Source: Eledone cirrhosa (Eukaryota). From it: 64,000 nt of DNA. Position numbers and translations under genes: made by a program. Under the pieces are notes generated by a model. The model saw only the letters and a program-made list of their open reading frames with translations. It was not told where the DNA came from and made no database searches. Location of the stretch: NCBI GenBank assembly GCA_964016885.1, contig OZ024743.1:57164001-57228000 (forward strand). The letters run 5' to 3'. Shown piece after piece: positions 5,048 through 56,094 of this stretch; within the stretch, counting starts at the first letter, position 1, and each line of letters begins with the position of its first letter.

Positions 5048-5082
<35 letters not shown>

Positions 5083-5086
<4 letters not shown>

Positions 5087-5392
5087 AAGAGTGAAGAATA
5101 ACATGGTCGGCTGTACAAAAAGGGTTTTATTTACAGTATTAATAATTGTTTCATTGATCAGGTGGGTCTAAAGGCCGCTGATCACTCGAAATTGCGTCAC
5201 TCGACCTTAAATACAGTGTGTGTCTCTGATCAAATCTTCGATGATCTGATCAGAGACACACACTGTATTTAAGGTCGAGTGACGCAATTTCGAGTGATCA
5301 GCGGCCTTTAGACCCACCTGATCAATGAAACAATTATTAATACTGTAAATAAAACCCTTTTTGTACAGCCGACCATGTTATTCTTCACTCTT

Positions 5393-5396
<4 letters not shown>
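5083..5396. repeat. Apparently perfect 150-bp-arm palindrome inside (TA)n
   Basis: 5083-5232 is the reverse complement of 5247-5396 with a 14-nt loop; HHR-like GATGA...GAAACA...TGTA. Confidence 0.95.
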
Positions 5397-5437
<41 letters not shown>

Positions 5438-10762: not shown

Positions 10763-10838
10763 GGAAATTTAGTAAAATCGAATCTCTGGCGGTTTGCAAG
10801 CAAATTCAGCCCACTTATATGATATATATATATATATA

Positions 10839-11460
10839 TTTCGTTTCTGAATTTGTTTAGCAAGATTCTTTATCTGAAAACGTGTGTTGAAACCGATATT
10901 GTTATGCTTTGGGAGGGTCATGTTGCCAATAAGAAACACACGCACCAGTTGCTTTCACTCCAATTTATTATAAATTAAATTTATAAATTTCCGGTTGGTT
11001 GGTTGGCTCCATCGGACGGTTGTTCATATATTGTCAAAGTTCTTTCGTCACACATTCTGTGACCTCTTCAGTGACTGGGGATTCTTTTCTTTGTTTTGTG
11101 CCTCTCCTTTGTTCTGTCCTCCGCCATCTTGTTTTTTGTGTGTGTTGTGTGCTTAGTTTGCGCACGTGTTACATCCGGGTATCTGTGTGTGTTTTTATTT
11201 GTTTATTTATTTGTTTATTTACATGTTACTAGTTAGTTGTTTGTTCTATGTGTGTGTTTTCATTTTGTCCTTACTTTTAAGTTGTGATGTTGCTATTCCA
11301 TTCATGTTTTCTATTTAATTTTGGTTGGAGTTTATTTATGTTTATTGCCTCTGTGATTTGTCTAAACATTGCGTCTTTTCTGTGTGTAGATTTTATTTTT
11401 ATTTCTATGTTCTCTAATTTTCCCTTATGTTCTATTTTAGCATGTTGGTGGAGTATTGAT
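10839..11460 (-). mobile_element. PLE 3' UTR/pLTR (family B) with 3' end at (TA)n
   Basis: Homologous to 40018-40520 and 49881-49953; contains an HHR. Confidence 0.7.
11033..11075 (-). ncRNA. Minimal type I hammerhead ribozyme
   Basis: gtca-CTGAAGA-g-gtcac-agaatgt-gtgac-GAAA-gaac-TT-tgac; stems I and II pair. Confidence 0.7.
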
Positions 11461-39965: not shown

Positions 39966-40017
39966 TGTATATACATATACATATGCATATACATATACAT
40001 ATAAATATGCATATATA

Positions 40018-40517
40018 TCGTTTCTGAATTTGTTTAGCAAGATTCTTTATCTGAAATCGTGTGTTGAAACCGATATTGTTATACTTTGGGAGGGTCATGT
40101 TGCCAATAAGAAACACATGCACCAGTTGCTTTCACTTCAATTTATTATAATAAATTTATAAATTTAGGAATTTATAAATTTCTGGTTGGTTGGTTGGTTC
40201 CACAACCAGATAGTTGTTTATATATTGTCAAAGTTCTTTCGTCACACATTCTGTGACCTCTTCAGTGACTGGCGTAGGACAGTGCAAAGGAGAGGCACAA
40301 AAATAAAGAAAAGAATCCCCAGTCACTGAAGAGGCCACAGAATGTGTGACGAAAGAACTTTGACAATATATAAACAACTATCTGGTTGTGGAACCAACCA
40401 ACCAACCAGAAATTTATAAATTCCTAAATTTATAAATTTATTATAATAAATTGAAGTGAATGCAACTGGTGCGTGTGTTTCTTATTGGCAACATGACCCT
40501 CCCAAAGTATAACAATA

Positions 40518-40520
<3 letters not shown>
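40018..40520. mobile_element. Head-to-head family B pLTR palindrome with two outward-facing HHRs
   Basis: Arms about 40073-40272 and 40319-40518; HHRs near 40226-40270 (-) and 40322-40364 (+). Confidence 0.88.
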
Positions 40521-40596
<76 letters not shown>

Positions 40597-42716: not shown

Positions 42717-43309
42717 GATTCAAATATAGATGTATTTCAATATGTTGAGTATAAGTATACAACTTGTCTCACTGCAAACATGTCTAGCTACTTCAGCAAC
42801 CAGGGTAAGAGCAGCAGATGCATTTCACTATTTTTACGTGTCATCAGCTTGATGGGCTCGTTTTAATCAGAGAATATTTTTTATAAAGCCCGAATGTAAT
42901 TTAACTTTCGGCATTAGAAAAATAACATTAATCATCAAATGAAGCTTTTTGTCTTTCCATCGGAGAAATTTATCAAGTTTCTTTCCCATTGACGTAGGTT
43001 CGAGTTCAATCCCACTGGGTTTGACCAATGCTTTGTTAGTAAAATTTATATGATGGAAATTGTAGAAGATGGCCATGTTTTAGATACAGTATTGTATAAT
43101 ATACAGATATAACATAGTATGTAGATGAATCTACCGAAAGTTTACGGTAGTGTCCAATCCGTATGAAGAACTCAATGTAATCCGGATATCATGAAAAGAG
43201 AAGATACATTCAAAAACTACTTTCGGTGAAAAATAAACGGAAAACAGAGTCAAGATAAATTAATAAAATAATGAATAAACAAAGAAACAGTTCCTTATAT
43301 TAAAAAAAT

Positions 43310-43452
43310 TCATCATTTTACGATCGTTTCTAGGATATATATGTGTTAGAGTTGGTATGCATATTCTATAGATCTATGTACACTATTTATACAAACTATC
43401 AGAGGGAATATACATACCTACACATATATATGCTGTCTTCAGAAATAATGAT
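43310..43452 (-). ncRNA. Hammerhead with very long stem II (left arm)
   Basis: Mirror of 50630-50771. Confidence 0.75.
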
Positions 43453-44083
43453 ATTTGTTTATTGAAAAAAACAAAGATTCAATACAATAGGTCTGTTTGG
43501 GAACAGGTTTTGAATTGACCAATAGAGAGATAGTGATGGTCAGGATAGTAATATAGTAGTAGAAGAACCTTAAATTATGGGTAGAGGAAGGTAGATTTCA
43601 GTTTTGGATGGAAAAGAATATTATGAGTGAAGGATTATTTTAGGGAAGAAATAGGTCTTATGCTGACCTCAGAAATAATTTTATTTGTTCATTGACTAAA
43701 ACCAACAAAGATCTAATATATTCTGTCTGTATGGTAAGAGGTTTAGAATTAACCAATAGAAAGTTAATAATTGGCCAAATGGTAAAATAGTAGTAATTGA
43801 AGCTTATTTTAGGGGTGAAACTAGGTCAGGTGGTCAGTAAAAGGTATACAAGCAGTTGCTGTTATAAAATAGTAATGCCAATACAAATATCTAAGGTGAC
43901 TAAAGTTTTAAGATAAGAATGTTAGTGAAAAAAATACATCTATGAAAAGAATATAAATTAATTTAATTGATGGGTATAATTTATATTGATAAATTTATAC
44001 TAATACATATAGATATGATAAATAAGAGTTAGATGCAGTTGAAAAGTGCTGTTAAAGATGAGGGGAAATTAAAAGAATATAAA

Positions 44084-44123
<40 letters not shown>

Positions 44124-44165
44124 TTATATATATATATATATATATACACATATATATATACACAT

Positions 44166-44233
<68 letters not shown>

Positions 44234-44521
44234 TTACATATACATATATATATACATATGTATATACATACACACACACACATATACATATATATATATA
44301 TATACACATATATACACACATATACATATATATATATACATAGATATATACATGCATATATACATACATACACATACACATACACACACATATACACTTA
44401 TATATACATATAATTATTGGGGGGGGGGATTAAATTTATTAGTGAGAAATAGTAAATATATATAGTTTTCAAGGAACATAGAGTCATAACCTGAAGTTAA
44501 AGCATTATATATGTTTACTTA

Positions 44522-44638
44522 CGATCTGAGTTCAAATCCCGCCGAGGTTGACTTTGCCTTTCATCCTTACGGGGTCGATAAAATAAAGTACCAGTAATGA
44601 ACTGGGTAATTGCTGGCCTTGTGCCTAAAGTAGAAACA
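44522..44638 (+). mobile_element. 5'-truncated SINE A in the left arm only
   Basis: 18-bp TSD ATTATATATGTTTACTTA; empty site near 49460-49477 in the right arm. Confidence 0.92.
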
Positions 44639-44899
44639 ATTATATATGTTTACTTAATGGTATCAGTTTTAGGAAATGATATTTGCAAGAAGGAAAGCAA
44701 AATTATGTAGTTCATCAGTAGTAGAATATTAATTATAGGTTAACTAAATTAAAAATAGTTTATATATTAATTTCTAAAGTGTATATTAATTAGGTTTATA
44801 ATTTTTAAAGCAGAATTATGTAGTTCATCAGTAGTAGAATATTAATTATAGGTTAACTAAATTAAAAATAATTTATAAATTAATTTCTAAAGTGTATAT

Positions 44900-46883
44900 G
44901 AATTAGGTTTATAATATTTAAAGGTTTTTCTCAGTTTATGATTACACGATATTATTAATTCCTGTCGCTTATTTAATAGGATATCCTTAGATTTCATTAT
45001 TTCAAAAAGTTCTTGGGAACTAATCTACATTCATTTCTACTATTTTGATAAGGGGTGGCCCTTTTGAGCACACTCCAGGTCAGGTTATATTCTATATTCC
45101 TCTTTCTATAACTATTTATTATTTCAGCTAGAGATGTTGTATTAGCTAGTGCGGCATTTTTAAAACTATGTTTGTGGGTATTAAATCTTACCTTAAATTT
45201 GTTAGAGGTAGCTCCTATATATGAATAAATTGAGTCCTTAGTGTTAACTTTACATTTATATACTATGTTATTAACAAGGCAATTTCCTTTTAATGGACAG
45301 TTTGCCTTGTTTCTACAGTTACAACTTTTCGTGAATCCTGTATTTGAGGAGATATTATGGTTAGTTTGATGTACTGGTGGTATACTCATGGTTTTTTTAC
45401 ATTTATATGCATTATAGGCACTTATATTTTATGTTTTTGGTTGTTGAGTAGGAGAATTTAACCGTTGATCTATTTAAGATTTGATGGTATTTGTGGTTTG
45501 GTGGGAAGTTTTTCTCTAGGATATTAAAGAACTTTTTAGGTATATTTGTAAATTAAATGGAGCATTGTACCAAGTAACTCGTCTATTACGGTTTCGATGT
45601 TGTTTATTGTTTTTATAGGATGCATCCTGATGTTTATTAAGAGAATTATTGTTAATGACCTCACCACACACATTTTTAGTTAGAATTATTGATTTAGGTG
45701 TTTTAGCTTGTTTATTAGGAGTTTTATTATTAACATTTATTAGAGTTGTAGGATGAGTAGTTTTTTGAGAGTTACTATACTGTATATTAGAAGAGTTAGA
45801 GAAATTTGGTTTTATGTTGGTGTTTTGGGGTATAGTGTGAGTGGCATTTAGGTGTGTATGTTTCATTTGGTGTTTGTTGGTAATATTAGGTTGTAAGTTT
45901 GTAGTGTTATTGGTAGAAGGTATATATACTAATCTATTTTTGTGGCCACTTCTAGCTAGAGCTTCGTTATAAAAGGTCGCATTTTTATCAAATACATCTT
46001 GGTTAGACGAAAGGTTAGACATTCTAAGTGATATATTATATGCAAGGTTTTTAAGGATAGATTTAGGGTGATTAGATTGTGAGTGTATGTAGTGTAAATT
46101 TTGGTTGGGTTTATGGTAAGGTTGGTAGATACCCGTAGATAAGTCTAATGTTATATCTAGGAAATTAACTACTTTACTTGTGTTTTCAAATGTAATATCT
46201 AGACTATAATATTCTTTGAGGAAAGTTCTAATAAGCTTTTTATTTTTTTCTATCTCTGAGAGGCTAAGGTTATTGGAAAGAAGAAGACAGTCGTCACGAT
46301 ATAAACCACCTTTAAGGTGGGGAAAAGAAGCATTTATGTTAAAAAGAAGAAAGAGGCCCACAATATCAGTAATTTGGGCAGAATCGCTTGAGTCCATAGT
46401 AATATCGAATAGATTACTATATGTGTTTCTGGTCCAGTATTCATTCTGAAATTCCAATAGTGTTAGTCTAGCATGTGTAATAATATTAATGTCATCCAAA
46501 GTTAAGTTAGATCTATTTTTAGCAAATATCAAGGCTTTGTTCAGGAGTATAGGTGATATAGAAGAATAATAATTATCTATATCAAATTGTAGAAATGAAG
46601 CAGAGGATTTATTTCTAATATTATTAAACCAGTTAATTACCTGGGATGTGTTTTCCCAGAGTGGTAAATTAACATGTTTTCTTAGTTGTGGGATGACTCT
46701 ATCTAAAATGTTTTTACTAATTATTCCAATATCAGATTTGGAAGGGCATATAAGCCTTATAGAAGGATTAGAGTTAAAGTTAGATTTATGATCTTTCAGG
46801 TTGAAGTGAGGTCTTTTCAATGCCAAAGGTTCAGTTCTATCTTCAATATTAAGTCTATTCACTATGCTGTGTGTTTTGTTGTT
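44900..46883 (-). pseudogene. PLE RT plus GIY-YIG, left-arm copy, frameshifted
   Basis: ORFs 45516-46862 and 44997-45389 are nearly identical to the right arm. Confidence 0.9.
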
Positions 46884-47109
46884 TATTTTATTAATTTATC
46901 TTGACTCTGTTTTCCGTTTATTTTTCACCGAAAGTAGTTTTTGAATGCATCTTCTCTTTTCATGATATCCGGATTACATTGAGTTCTTCATACGGATTGG
47001 ACACTACCGTAAACCTTTGGTAGATTTATCTACATACTTTGCTCCTATTTTCATGGGGATATTCTTAATTTTATATTGTATGTGTATATATATTTATATA
47101 TATATAAAA

Positions 47110-49218
47110 AAATCTAAAAAAATCCATGTCCACTCGGACAAAACATGGATATTGAAAATTACAATGAGTTCATATATAAAGAACTCAGGAAAAATTATAG
47201 AAAAACAAATAATGCGTCACTTACCAACATCAACAACAAAACACACAGCATAGTGAATAGACTTAATATTGAAGATAGAACTGAACCTTTGGCATTGAAA
47301 AGACCACACTTCAACCTGAAAGATCATAAATCTAACTTTAACTCTAATCCTTCTATAAGGCTTATATGCCCTTCCAAATCTGATATTGGAATAATTAGTA
47401 AAAAATTTTTAGATAGAGTCATCCCACAACTAAGAAAACATGTTAATTTACCACTCTGGGAAAACACATCCCAGGTAATTAACTGGTTTAATAATATTAG
47501 AAATAAATCCTCTGCTTCATTTCTACAATTTGATATAGATAATTATTATTCTTCTATATCACCTATACTCCTGAACAAAGCCTTGATATTTGCTAAAAAT
47601 AGATCTAACTTAACTTTGGATGACATTAATATTATTACACATGCTAGACTAACACTATTGGAATTTCAGAATGAATACTGGACCAGAAACACATATAGTA
47701 ATCTATTCGATATTACTATGGACTCAAGCGATTCTGCCCAAATTACTGATATTGTGGGCCTCTTTCTTCTTTTTAACATAAATGCTTCTTTTCCCCACCT
47801 TAAAGGTGGTTTATATCGTGACGACTGTCTTCTTCTTTCCAATAACCTTAGCCTCTCAGAGATAGAAAAAAATAAAAAGCTTATTAGAACTTTCCTCAAA
47901 GAATATTATAGTCTAGATATTACATTTGAAAACACAAGTAAAGTAGTTAATTTCCTAGATATAACATTAGACTTATCTACGGGTATCTACCAACCTTACC
48001 ATAAACCCAACCAAAATTTACACTACATACACTCACAATCTAATCACCCTAAATCTATCCTTAAAAACCTTGCATATAATATATCACTTAGAATGTCTAA
48101 CCTTTCGTCTAACCAAGATGTATTTGATAAAAATGCGACCTTTTATAACGAAGCTCTAGCTAGAAGTGGCCACAAAAATAGATTAGTATATATACCTTCT
48201 ACCAATAACACTACAAACTTACAACCTAATATTACCAACAAACACCAAATGAAACATACACACCTAAATGCCACTCACACTATACCCCAAAACACCAACA
48301 TAAAACCAAATTTCTCTAACTCTTCTAATATACAGTATAGTAACTCTCAAAAAACTACTCATCCTACAACTCTAATAAATGTTAATAATAAAACTCCTAA
48401 TAAACAAGCTAAAACACCTAAATCAATAATTCTAACTAAAAATGTGTGTGGTGAGGTCATTAACAATAATTCTCTTAATAAACATCAGGATGCATCCTAT
48501 AAAAACAATAAACAACATCGAAGCCGTAATAGACGAGTTACTTGGTACAATGCTCCATTTAATTTACAAATATACCTAAAAAATTCTTTAATATCCTAGA
48601 GAAAAACTTCCCGCCAAACCACAAATACCATCAAATCTTAAATAGATCAACGGTTAAATTCTCCTACTCAACAACCAAAAACATAAAATATAAGTGCCTA
48701 TAATGCATATAAATGTAAAAAAAACCATGAGTATACCACCAGTACATCAAACTAACCATAATATCTCCTCAAATACAGGATTCACGAAAAGTTGTAACTG
48801 TAGAAACAAGGCAAACTGTCCATTAAAAGGAAATTGCCTTGTTAATAACATAGTATATAAATGTAAAGTTAACACTAAGGACTCAATTTATTCATATATA
48901 GGAGCTACCTCTAACAAATTTAAGGTAAGATTTAATACCCACAAACATAGTTTTAAAAATGCCGCACTAGCTAATACAACATCTCTAGCTGAAATAATAA
49001 ATAGTTATAGAAAGAGGAATATAGAATATAACCTGACCTGGAGTGTGCTCAAAAGGGCCACCCCTTATCAAAATAGTAGAAATGAATGTAGATTAGTTCC
49101 CAAGAACTTTTTGAAATAATGAAATCTAAGGATATCCTATTAAATAAGCGACAGGAATTAATAATATCGTGTAATCATAAACTGAGAAAAACCTTTAAAT
49201 ATTATAAACCTAATTAAT
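47110..49218 (+). pseudogene. PLE RT plus C-terminal GIY-YIG, right-arm copy, frameshifted
   Basis: LKDHK, FDIDNYYSSI, GLYRDD, CNCRNKANCPLKGNC, IVY..YIG, LNKRQE..SCNH. Confidence 0.9.
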
Positions 49219-49420
49219 ATACACTTTAGAAATTAATTTATAAATTATTTTTAATTTAGTTAACCTATAATTAATATTCTACTACTGATGAACTACATAA
49301 TTCTGCTTTAAAAATTATAAACCTAATTAATATACACTTTAGAAATTAATATATAAACTATTTTTAATTTAGTTAACCTAAAATTAATATTCTACTACTG
49401 ATGAACTACATAATTTTGCT
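49195..49420. repeat. About 114-bp tandem duplication in the PLE 3' region
   Basis: Two copies, mirrored at about 44697-44922. Confidence 0.85.
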
Positions 49421-49758
49421 TTCCTTCTTGCAAATATCATTTCCAAAAACTGATACCATTAAGTAAACATATATAATGCTTTAACTTCAGGTTATGACTC
49501 TATGTTCCTTGAAAACTATATATATTTACTATTTCTCACTAATAAATTTAATCCCCCCCCCAATAATTATATGTATATATAAGTGTATATGTGTGTGCAT
49601 GTGTATGTGTATGTATGTATATATGCATCTATATATCTATGTATATATATATATATATATATGTGTATATGTGTGTATATATGTGTATATATATATATAT
49701 ATGTATATGTGTGTGTGTGTGTATGTATATACATATGTATATATATATGTATATGTAA

Positions 49759-49818
<60 letters not shown>

Positions 49819-49829
49819 ATGTGTATATA

Positions 49830-49875
<46 letters not shown>

Positions 49876-49880
49876 TATAT

Positions 49881-49953
49881 ATATTGTTATACTTTGGGAG
49901 GGTCATGTTGCCAATAAAGATAAAGAATCTTGCTAAACAAATTCAGAAACGAA
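49881..49953. mobile_element. About 73-bp two-piece family B insert in the right arm only
   Basis: Two opposite-orientation 3' ends; duplication ATAAGTATATATA; empty site near 44120. Confidence 0.85.
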
Positions 49954-49957
49954 ATAA

Positions 49958-49997
<40 letters not shown>

Positions 49998-50629
49998 TTT
50001 ATATTCTTTTAATTTCCCCTCATATTTAACAGCACTTTTCAACTGCATCTAACTCTTATTTATCATATCTATATGTATTAGTATAATTTTATCAATATAA
50101 ATTATACCCATCAATTAAATTAATTTATATTCTTTTCATAGATGTATTTTTTTCACTAACATTCTTATCTTAAAACTTTAGTCACCTTAGATATTTGCAT
50201 TGGCATTACTATTTTATAACAGCAACTGCTTGTATACCTTTTACTGACCACCTGACCTAGTTTCACCCCTAAAATAAGCTTCAATTACTACTTTTTTACC
50301 ATTTGGCCAATTATTAACTTTCTATTGGTTAATTCTAAACCTCTTACCATACAGACAGAATATATTAGATCTTTGTTGGTTTTATTCAATGAACAAATAA
50401 AATTATTTCTGAGGTCAGCATAAGACCTATTTCTTCCCTAAAATAATCATTCACTCATAATATTCTTTTCCATCCAAAACTGAAATCTACCTTCCTCTAC
50501 CCATAATTTAAGGTTCTTCTACTACTATATTACTATCCTGACCCTCACTATCTCTCTATTGGTCAATTCAAAACCTGTTCCCAAACAGACCTATTGTATT
50601 GAATCTTTGTTTTTTTCAATAAACAAATA

Positions 50630-50771
50630 TCATTATTTCTGAAGACAGCATATATATGTTTAGGTATGTATATTCCCTCTGATAGTTTGTATAAATATTG
50701 TACATAGATCTATAGAATATGCATACCAACTCTAACACATATATATCCTAGAAACGATCGTAAAATGATGA
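50630..50771 (+). ncRNA. Hammerhead with about 105-nt stem II (right arm)
   Basis: tcattattt-CTGAAGA-long hairpin-GAAA-cgatcg-TA|aaatgatga; 9-bp stem I; palindromic ACGATCGT. Confidence 0.75.
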
Positions 50772-50924
50772 ATTTTTTTAATATAAGGAACTGTTTCTTT
50801 GTTTATTCATTATTTTATTAATTTAAGATATAACATAGTATATAGTTTAATCAACTCTGCCGCTATCCACGAATTACTAGCCTTGTGCCTAAATTTGAAA
50901 TAATAGATATACTGTTTATAGATA

Positions 50925-51115
50925 AACATAGATAATGTAGTCCTGGATAAACTGTGATACATTAGATAATGTACTCTCAGATAAACTATATCACCTTAGA
51001 TATAGTATTCCTAGACATGTTGGATACTGTAGTCCTAGATAAATTGTAACATAGACAAATGTTGTCCGAAATAAATTATGGCACATTTAGATATTGTAGT
51101 CCTAGATTGACTATG
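50925..51115. repeat. Degenerate minisatellite, about 33-bp unit
   Basis: Recurring AGATAATGTAGTCCTAGATAAA-like units. Confidence 0.65.
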
Positions 51116-51769
51116 TCTGGTTGAAAAAAAAGTCAATGATAATGGTAGAAATACGATTAAATATATTTTAATTGAATGACATTCATGAGCTTGGCTGGTT
51201 TCGATTGGGGATCCAGCCGGATCAGTTGGAGATGGTTGCTTCTGACAGGAACCGGTGGAAGGAGTGTTCGAGGGCTCTGCCGCCACGGCCTTCTTAGGAA
51301 TAAGTGAGCAAAGAAGAAGAAAAAGGAGGATGAGTGCTATCCCAGAATGAAGAGCAGCTACAACAACAGCATGTTATAAACGAGAATGATATTTCCCGTA
51401 CTAACTGCAGTGGTAACGAGCCCGTTAACTACTGCGTTAACCACTGTATTAACCGCTGTTTTAACCACTAGGTTAACGTCTATTTTAACCACTGAGGTAG
51501 TAACACCACCACGAGTCACCCCCCCCCCCCCCCACGGCCACCACGACCGCCACGACCCCCCCCCCCCACCATCGTACAGTCATCGTAGAATCAAGTTTAA
51601 TTCTATTTGACAAGTAATTCTAAAACCTATCATTTGATTGTTCACATGTCCACATCATACTGCTGTACAGACAGCGCGCGCGCGTGTGTGTATGTATATA
51701 TGTATGTATATACATTTAACATCATACAATGCACATATGTATCTATATGTACATATATACACATATATG

Positions 51770-55048: not shown

Positions 55049-55570
55049 TATGCTGCTGAAGGGGTCGAGTCTACTTCCCAGTAATACTTCCTGAATGTCT
55101 AAAATGTCTGCTCTTCCAGGATACATCGAAAAAAAAGAGACTTCCACAGATTCAAAAATACAATTCTACCTTTCTAACGGCATATTTCGGAGCTGAAAAG
55201 AACATGACAGACTTTCCATCTATACAACTTATAAAATTCAGGTACAACTTATAAAATTCAGGTACAAATTTGTGTAAATATATTTCATGGACAGAGTTCT
55301 GTCCATGAAATATATTTACACAAATTTGTGAAGTTCCTTTAAAAGTGGTAGAAGGCCACACACTAAATGGTAGCAGTACCTGAATTTTATAAGTTGTATA
55401 GATGGAAAGTCTGTCATGTTCTTTTCAGCTCCGAAATATGCCGTTAGAAAGGTAGAATTGTATTTTTGAATCTGCGGAAGTCTCTTTTTTTCGATGTATC
55501 CTGGAAGAGCAGACATTTTAGACATTCAGGAAGTATTACTGGGAAGTAGACTCGACCCCTTGAGCAGCAT
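55049..55570. repeat. Nested inverted repeat
   Basis: Outer arms about 55049-55245 and 55377-55570; inner palindrome about 55266-55328. Confidence 0.9.
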
Positions 55571-56094
55571 AAACCTGGTCTTTCTGCCACCCACGTTTTG
55601 GCACCAGATTGTTCAAAACATTTCATTCTCCGAAGAATTTGTGGATTACTCCTGTAGTCATTTTGGGTGAGGGGGTCATAGAAGAAGCATCTACCAATCA
55701 ATTCCTATTTCCTATTGCTCGTGCTTCTGCTTGGATTGTAGAACAGTGTGCTTAATCAACATTTCGCCTAATTTACTGGTGTTTCTCAATTTGTTATTCT
55801 CGAGTATCAGCATTCATGTAGCTGTTTTGAATACTAATTATCTGTCCATTACTCATTCCTGGGCTCGGGTCAAAGCATATTACAGCCTGTTAGCAGCCAG
55901 ACAGGCCTGTCGAGCGTCTTCACTGTCTTTAAGTTGCTGTGCTCTCTCTGACCTCTGAAGGAAACCTTCCATATAATAGTCTATTTCAGTGTTTGTCTTT
56001 AAACTCTTAATTTAAATAAACTTGCTAACACCATAATGTGCTACTACTCCGTGTAACAACTCTGGCAGTAATGAACATCGAGTTTTTAGAAACA

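What the first reader, a model, noticed from the sequence alone, without database searches (positions are those of the whole stretch)
43105..50841. 7.7-kb palindrome of a Hydra-clade-like PLE bounded by a single 16-bp TSD
Seen: two near-identical arms of about 3.6 kb with a 346-bp spacer. The spacer holds a pLTR fragment (46884-47038, the reverse complement of 43117-43270) directly upstream of the right ORF. One TSD, AGATATAACATAGTAT, brackets the whole structure, and the left 3' end overlaps the TSD by AGTAT (microhomology). The clade call rests on remembered motifs (GLYRDD, CNC-x5-CP, C-terminal GIY-YIG) and is inference. This is the kilobase-scale version of the mini-palindromes and suggests one insertion event with two-ended priming. 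Arm-specific secondary insertions argue against an assembly artefact.
Basis: partly seen in the sequence, partly recalled or inferred. Interest (0 to 1): 0.75.

Follow-up and report, generated by a model that had tools for sequence, protein, structure and literature searches.

The report
Double-ended Hydra-clade Penelope retrotransposon insertion
This 7.7-kb mirror-image repeat is a real but broken example of a layout already described for Penelope-like jumping genes, likely made in one event in which both cut DNA strands started copying the element's RNA at two fixed spots; its modest extra value is a readable target duplication and three deletions that the two halves share and no other copy in this genome assembly carries.

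Summary
The palindrome is real: arms 43256-46883 and 47232-50825, 348-bp spacer, one 16-mer at both ends. It belongs to a young, high-copy Penelope-like family. Intact siblings (816-aa ORF) meet the Hydra-clade protein criteria, but no canonical hammerhead was found. The family has two fixed 3' ends 135-140 nt apart. 46 of 47 outward-facing end pairs in sibling loci have one of each, as this copy does. That fits one insertion primed from both strands, and it is the published PLE layout (inverted 5'-truncated copy, tail at one end). Earlier notes of this scan describe it in other genomes. Less ordinary: the target is not (TA)n, so the duplication is readable, and both arms share three frameshift deletions found nowhere else in the assembly. 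An already broken donor, later arm-to-arm conversion, or fold-back copying of the first cDNA could each explain these; my tests do not separate them. No empty allele or spanning long read was seen.

The parts
43105..43120 (+). Left copy of the 16-mer; last 5 bp overlap the element's long (tailed) 3' end, so the true TSD is 11-16 bp
43121..43255 (-). 135-nt tail present on the left arm only (long 3' end, 'end B')
43256..46883 (-). Left arm: 5'-truncated copy (RT-EN remnant plus long 3' UTR)
44077..44412 (.). Compound (TA)/(CA) microsatellite in the 3' UTR, a family feature; mirrored at about 49568-49884
44522..44638 (+). Left-arm-only SINE-like insertion with an 18-bp TSD (44504-44521 and 44639-44656)
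44694..44923 (-). Two 113-bp tandem units after the ORF stop; mirrored at 49193-49422
45020..45543 (-). Three frameshift deletions in the left arm (1 bp near 45020, 5 bp near 45426, 10 bp near 45543), shared with the right arm
46883..47105 (+). pLTR piece plus start of the 5' UTR of the right copy; the centre junction has a 1-nt overlap with the left arm
47105..47146 (+). 385-bp deletion at 47105/47106 (removes the start codon region) and a 16-bp deletion near 47145 that is unique in the assembly
47106..49217 (+). Broken RT + linker + C-terminal GIY-YIG ORF of the right copy
47232..50825 (+). Right arm, ending at the short, tail-less 3' end ('end A')
48569..49096 (+). The same three frameshift deletions in the right arm (near 48569, 48685, 49096)
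49881..49955 (.). Right-arm-only stub of a second (TA)n-targeting family, matching both ends of the 40015-40525 mini-palindrome; TSD about 12-14 bp
50826..50841 (+). Right copy of the 16-mer

Best explanation
This is a head-to-head pair of broken copies of a high-copy Hydra-clade Penelope-like retrotransposon with one long and one short 3' end, likely made in a single insertion in which both strands of one staggered cut primed reverse transcription on RNA from the same donor locus. Shown: the anatomy, the duplication, the two fixed 3' ends and their pairing rule, the shared lesions, and two later insertions. Inferred steps: (1) the GIY-YIG endonuclease, supplied in trans by an intact sibling, cut a degenerate TA-rich site with an 11-16-nt stagger; (2) the top-strand 3' end primed at the long end, helped by up to 5 nt of pairing, and copied 3.7 kb; (3) the bottom-strand 3' end primed 135-140 nt further in, without visible pairing, and copied one whole unit through into the upstream pLTR; (4) the two cDNA ends were joined almost blunt (1-nt overlap); (5) the three shared frameshift deletions most likely came from an already broken donor that is absent from this assembly (about 0.5; rivals below); (6) the arms have since drifted about 0.3% each and taken one insertion each.
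For: One duplication brackets both arms; siblings in imperfect TA runs show 11-13-bp duplications (L109; L174, L183, L185, L186, L190, L192). Two precise 3' ends recur: 579 exact short-end and 5,908 long-end junctions into (TA)n genome-wide, from patterns that are not like for like. Outward-facing end pairs are long+short in 11 of 11 pairs found among 38 loci picked by RT match, 22 of 23 among 40 loci picked by short end, and 13 of 13 among 36 further loci. The single short+short case lies in a larger inverted duplication that includes flanks. The arms are each other's closest copies in the ORF (0.31% against 0.77-0.97% to the nearest of 41 others) and agree at 10 common polymorphic sites, disagreeing at 2 plus one homopolymer length. 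PMC11167929 reports that a PLE protein cuts and extends both strands and starts at two internal RNA sites with no homology to the cut DNA. Shared rare variants in inverted pairs have a genomic spectrum (A>G 5 of 50 shared against 25 of 283 arm-specific), and direct-tandem pairs also share some (7 shared, 101 differing), as a common donor predicts.
Against: No donor with the shared deletions exists in the assembly. Sharing is uneven along the arms: 9 shared against 9 arm-specific variants in the inner part, 1 against 9 in the outer part (Fisher p 0.04-0.05). In the outer 3' UTR the arms are no closer to each other (1.11%) than to the nearest sibling (0.99-1.11%). Deletions are over-represented among shared changes (3 deletions to 7 substitutions, against 31 to 804 family-wide). 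No empty allele or spanning long read was seen. Most pairing counts come from loci chosen by one end type; only the 11 RT-picked pairs are free of that bias.
Confidence: 0.75

Rival explanations
1. Same single insertion, but the inner arms were homogenised later by arm-to-arm gene conversion, which copied post-insertion deletions from one arm to the other; the SINE and microsatellite heterologies shielded the outer part.
For: Inner versus outer difference in sharing (p about 0.04-0.05). Rare changes per arm are similar inside and outside, but only the inner ones are shared. Other inverted pairs share more in the ORF (23 shared, 80 differing) than in the UTR (25, 209; p 0.007). Private indels shared: 3 of 21 in inverted pairs, 0 of 6 in direct pairs. 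No donor found.
Against: After correcting for the 1.46-fold higher UTR rate, the outer excess is not significant (p 0.15). Runs tests give p 0.16 for this locus and 0.25 for 11 pooled pairs. Shared variants are not nearer the centre family-wide (p 0.26). Inverted versus direct sharing in the UTR gives p 0.24.
Confidence: 0.25
2. Fold-back copying: the first cDNA, made with slippage deletions, snapped back and was copied as DNA to give the inner part of the other arm, which then annealed to a short cDNA primed at the other end.
For: Five deletions in the right copy against about 0.3 per kb family-wide. The two 5' ends lie within 25 nt of each other in 8 of 22 inverted siblings (null mean 1.5), and in 5 of 19 without the hot spot (p 0.00025). 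L120 has a short arm that jumps to the fold point. PMC3846280 infers self-priming from junction palindromes.
Against: Near-equal 5' ends follow equally from two run-offs on one truncated RNA. In this copy the 5' ends are far apart and the junction overlap is 1 nt. The shared substitutions still need a donor origin.
Confidence: 0.15
3. Two independent insertions at one site, or an assembly or DNA-level fold-back artefact.
For: The family has thousands of near-identical copies (3,323 candidates). No spanning long read was seen. One sibling locus (L146) is a larger inverted duplication.
Against: The flanks differ and carry one direct duplication. The ends are unequal as in the family rule. There are 20 substitutions and two arm-specific insertions with their own TSDs. 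The shared private deletions exclude independent donors. Public contigs hold the left junction and the 10-bp deletion junction (one contig in run X3).
Confidence: 0.04

Closest known systems
Hydra clade of Penelope-like elements (Craig et al. 2021, PMC8557442), e.g. Hydra-1_Obim and Penelope-13_HM
   Same: Single RT + C-terminal GIY-YIG ORF with RW[KR], DKT, CxCx5C, CxxC and CxH; no CCHH; (TA)n targeting. The supplement notes a 5'-truncated inverted copy on Penelope-13_HM.
   Different: Unit about 4.1 kb against generally under 3 kb; no canonical hammerhead found; about 100-aa Asn/Thr-rich insert before the linker; clearly a different family from Hydra-1_Obim, judged by eye from the printed N-terminal part.
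Typical EN+ PLE insertion: pLTR + inverted 5'-truncated copy + tail at one end + TSD (PMC8557442 Fig. 2 legend; Pen2a_Av in PMC3846280; D. virilis Penelope in PMC2377424)
   Same: Head-to-head arrangement, tail on one side only, one TSD (8-10 bp in Adineta), inverted repeats of variable size.
   Different: Tail of 135-140 nt against 30-40 nt; arms of 3.6 kb; duplication of 11-16 bp.
PAc Poseidon element in vitro (Frangieh et al. 2024, PMC11167929)
   Same: Cuts and extends both strands, prefers AT-rich DNA, starts at two internal RNA sites that match the tail boundaries.
   Different: Different clade; its start sites lie inside the ORF and 30-40 nt apart; the parts read do not address how inverted copies form.
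L1 twin priming (PMC2837659, search listing only; mechanism recalled)
   Same: Both strands of one cut prime cDNA, with one TSD around an inversion.
   Different: L1 gives two non-overlapping pieces of one RNA; here both arms contain the same 3' sequence.

Membership tests
PLE Hydra clade | Single ORF, RT followed by C-terminal GIY-YIG | tested here: met
   Open 816-aa frames in L044, L062 and L055 (L055 has a changed catalytic motif); IVY..YIG..R..H core. Pfam found nothing for the query; one homologue hit GIY-YIG weakly, below the cutoff.
PLE Hydra clade | RWK motif instead of GxKF/Y | tested here: met
   RIRWRAY in siblings; RW conserved in the 20-sequence alignment. This part is deleted in the window copy.
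PLE Hydra clade | DKG changed to DKT | tested here: met
   HSDKT in siblings; its codons remain at about 47127-47144.
PLE Hydra clade | Linker CxCX5C; CxxC and CxH around E/N; no CCHH | tested here: met
   CNCRNKANC, CRLC..E, CNH; no cysteine pair inside the GIY-YIG core (criteria).
PLE Hydra clade | Insertion into (TA)n | tested here: met
   Sibling ends run into TA repeats. The window copy sits in a degenerate TA-rich site.
PLE Hydra clade | Canonical hammerhead ribozyme in the pLTR | tested here: inconclusive
   No Rfam hammerhead hit on one full sibling, L045. My descriptor found none but had no positive control; two CUGANGA half-cores exist. The paper lists it as usual in Hydra, with exceptions.
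PLE Hydra clade | Generally short (under 3 kb) | tested here: not met
   Unit length 4,094 bp in L045, due to a long 3' UTR. The paper states this as a tendency only.
PLE Hydra clade | Falls in the Hydra clade in an RT phylogeny with named references | not tested
   Named reference proteins were seen only in the paper's supplement and were not entered into a tree.
EN+ PLE inverted insertion | Inverted 5'-truncated copy next to the upstream pLTR | tested here: met
EN+ PLE inverted insertion | Tail at one end only (30-40 bp in print) | tested here: met
   One-sided, but 135-140 nt long.
EN+ PLE inverted insertion | One TSD, present once at the empty site | tested here: inconclusive
   Duplication present; no empty site found by flank search or in laid contigs (list cut).
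Naiad / Chlamys | N-terminal endonuclease | tested here: not met
   The endonuclease is C-terminal.

The most novel reading that the evidence does not exclude
The second arm of long PLE palindromes is not an independent RNA copy. Its inner part is written from the first arm at the DNA level, by cDNA fold-back at insertion or by later arm-to-arm conversion. This locus, with three assembly-unique deletions confined to the inner arms, would record that step, and its non-(TA)n target gives a rare direct reading of the Hydra endonuclease's cut stagger.
Probability: 0.35. Interest if true: 0.55.

Novelty: new member of a known kind. Interest (0 to 1): 0.32.

Why it matters
How PLEs build inverted ends is named as an open question in PMC8557442. 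This family offers a countable rule (46 of 47 pairs have one long and one short end), a much longer tail than described, and readable 11-16-bp duplications in a clade whose (TA)n targets usually hide them. Intact siblings exist for in vitro work. The layout itself is known and this scan has noted the same rule elsewhere, so the gain is incremental unless the shared deletions prove DNA-level copying between arms.

Tried and rejected
Empty site: a search with the right flank found no paralogue covering the 16-mer; the laid contigs showed no loose end at 43120 among the rows displayed, with 178 rows cut. Runs X1 and X2 (other organisms, 7% word share) held only element ends, not the flank. RAD reads of another individual (X6) did not bridge the 10-bp deletion. 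Whether both arms carry the deletion in raw reads could not be read: one contig spans it with one other letter, and its depth of 89 is not a copy number. Pfam was uninformative. Rfam gave only microsatellite noise. An RNA-editing signature among shared variants was not found. Patchiness and distance tests for conversion were not significant. The concordance figures were wrong because of an offset in my script and are not used; one search replaced that analysis. Rows dropped before pooled counts: pairs with under 100 comparable sites, a non-majority load above 1.6%, or above 4% differences; the microsatellite, 113-bp repeat and tail regions were masked; L066 overlaps L055 and was left out of the variant analyses. 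The L147 'long+long' row is not counted, because its second site is an internal continuation. No structure prediction or tree was run.
Full report
Observation. Self-comparison confirms the palindrome. Base-level alignment gives arms 43256-46883 and 47232-50825, a 348-bp spacer, 20 substitutions and 7 indels. The 16-mer occurs exactly twice in the window, in direct orientation, at 43105 and 50826. Each arm carries its own later insertion with its own target duplication. Contigs from two public runs of one sample cross from unique left flank into the element, and one contig spans the 10-bp deletion junction. No long read, empty allele, or read support for the centre and right junctions was obtained.

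What it is. The RT region has 3,323 candidate matches in the 3.0-Gb assembly; the 40 scored are 98-100% identical. Three of 38 fetched loci have an 834-codon open frame, 816 aa from the first Met. [quoted passage not shown] It has 462 unnamed relatives at E below 1e-30. It differs in having a 4.1-kb unit, an Asn/Thr-rich insert and no canonical hammerhead that I could find. No tree with named references was built. Both window copies are broken. The right copy lacks 385 bp including the start region, and a further 16 bp; both arms lack 10, 5 and 1 bp at the same places.

Ends. The family ends at two exact positions 135-140 nt apart, almost always running into (TA)n. The left arm has the long end and the right arm the short one. 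The spacer piece is not a stray fragment: in tandem siblings the same sequence runs from the 3' UTR through the tail into the 5' UTR, so it is the right copy's pLTR. Where both outward ends were detected, 11 of 11 (among 38 RT-picked loci), 22 of 23 (among 40 short-end loci) and 13 of 13 (among 36 further loci) pairs were long+short. The exception lies in a larger inverted duplication. By alignment, 9 of 20 long-end-picked loci had an inverted short-end partner and none had a long-end partner. Siblings in imperfect TA runs show duplications of 11-13 bp, uncertain by TA slippage. Since the last 5 bp of the left 16-mer also match the element, the stagger here is 11-16 bp.

Mechanism. The simplest reading, which is inferred, is one cut, two primers and two fixed start sites on RNA from one donor, joined nearly blunt at the centre. 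It agrees with the in vitro result that a Poseidon-clade protein cuts and extends both strands and starts at two internal sites (PMC11167929, parts 1-2 of 4 read). The layout is described for Adineta (PMC3846280, passages), for D. virilis (PMC2377424, passages) and in general (PMC8557442). Earlier unreviewed notes of this scan report the same one-tail rule in other genomes.

The shared deletions. All three shared junctions match only the two arms genome-wide, and the 16-bp one only the right copy. The arms differ by 0.31% in the ORF (6 of 1,951 sites) but 1.11% in the outer UTR (9 of 810), where the nearest sibling is as close. Shared versus arm-specific variants are 9:9 inside and 1:9 outside (p about 0.04-0.05), but the rate-corrected, runs and distance tests are not significant. 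Three other inverted loci share a private indel, against none among direct pairs (3 of 21 and 0 of 6). Shared substitutions show no A>G excess. I rank a broken donor first, later conversion second and fold-back third; the data do not decide. Five literature searches listed no paper on shared private lesions or conversion in PLE palindromes. The library omits most subscription papers, and the supplement of one bioRxiv preprint (10.64898/2026.07.22.740005, passages read) was not seen. PMC13282606 (passages) does not mention Hydra.

Verdict. A real, dead, long-armed instance of the known PLE inverted insertion, from a Hydra-clade family that does not match the one relative I compared by eye (Hydra-1_Obim). 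Useful details are the readable duplication, the long tail and the shared lesions. Interest 0.32.

Noticed in passing
window 40015-40525, 10822-11126 and 49881-49955: A second (TA)n-targeting family of mini-palindromes with two different ends; the right-arm insertion is a minimal stub of both ends joined back to back. Its ends also flank siblings L042, L053 and L094.
   Followed up: partly
window 50639 region (43442 on the left arm); sibling loci L117, L137, L159, L183, L198, L204: A 5'-end hot spot just upstream of a CTGAAGA half-core: 10 aligned pieces start there, several forming perfect hairpins, and others (L132, L141, L165, L166, L192, L201) follow a SINE 3' end directly. It may be an RNA 5' end or a SINE target.
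   Followed up: partly
window about 48200-48510; L044 protein: About 100-aa Asn/Thr/His-rich in-frame insert between thumb and linker, absent from most homologues; recalls the Asn-rich inserts of Adineta Penelopes (PMC3846280).
   Followed up: no
L146 (G000:C1:403747500-403757400): Inverted duplication of at least 2.7 kb per arm that includes the flanks of a short-end copy.
   Followed up: partly
L120 and L139: Small palindromes at the centre junction with a discontinuous arm; L139 looks like an L1-type 5' inversion.
   Followed up: no
window 55049-55571, 5055-5424, 1396-1832: Further 370-520-bp palindromes with no match to this element's ends.
   Followed up: no
runs X1, X2 on window 43144-43259: Contigs of two other organisms show TA-rich loose ends at about the same long end, and X2 also at the short end, so the start sites may be conserved across species (few records).
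   Followed up: no
window about 50900-51120: Right flank holds a degenerate tandem repeat with 65-80% matches elsewhere in the genome.
   Followed up: no
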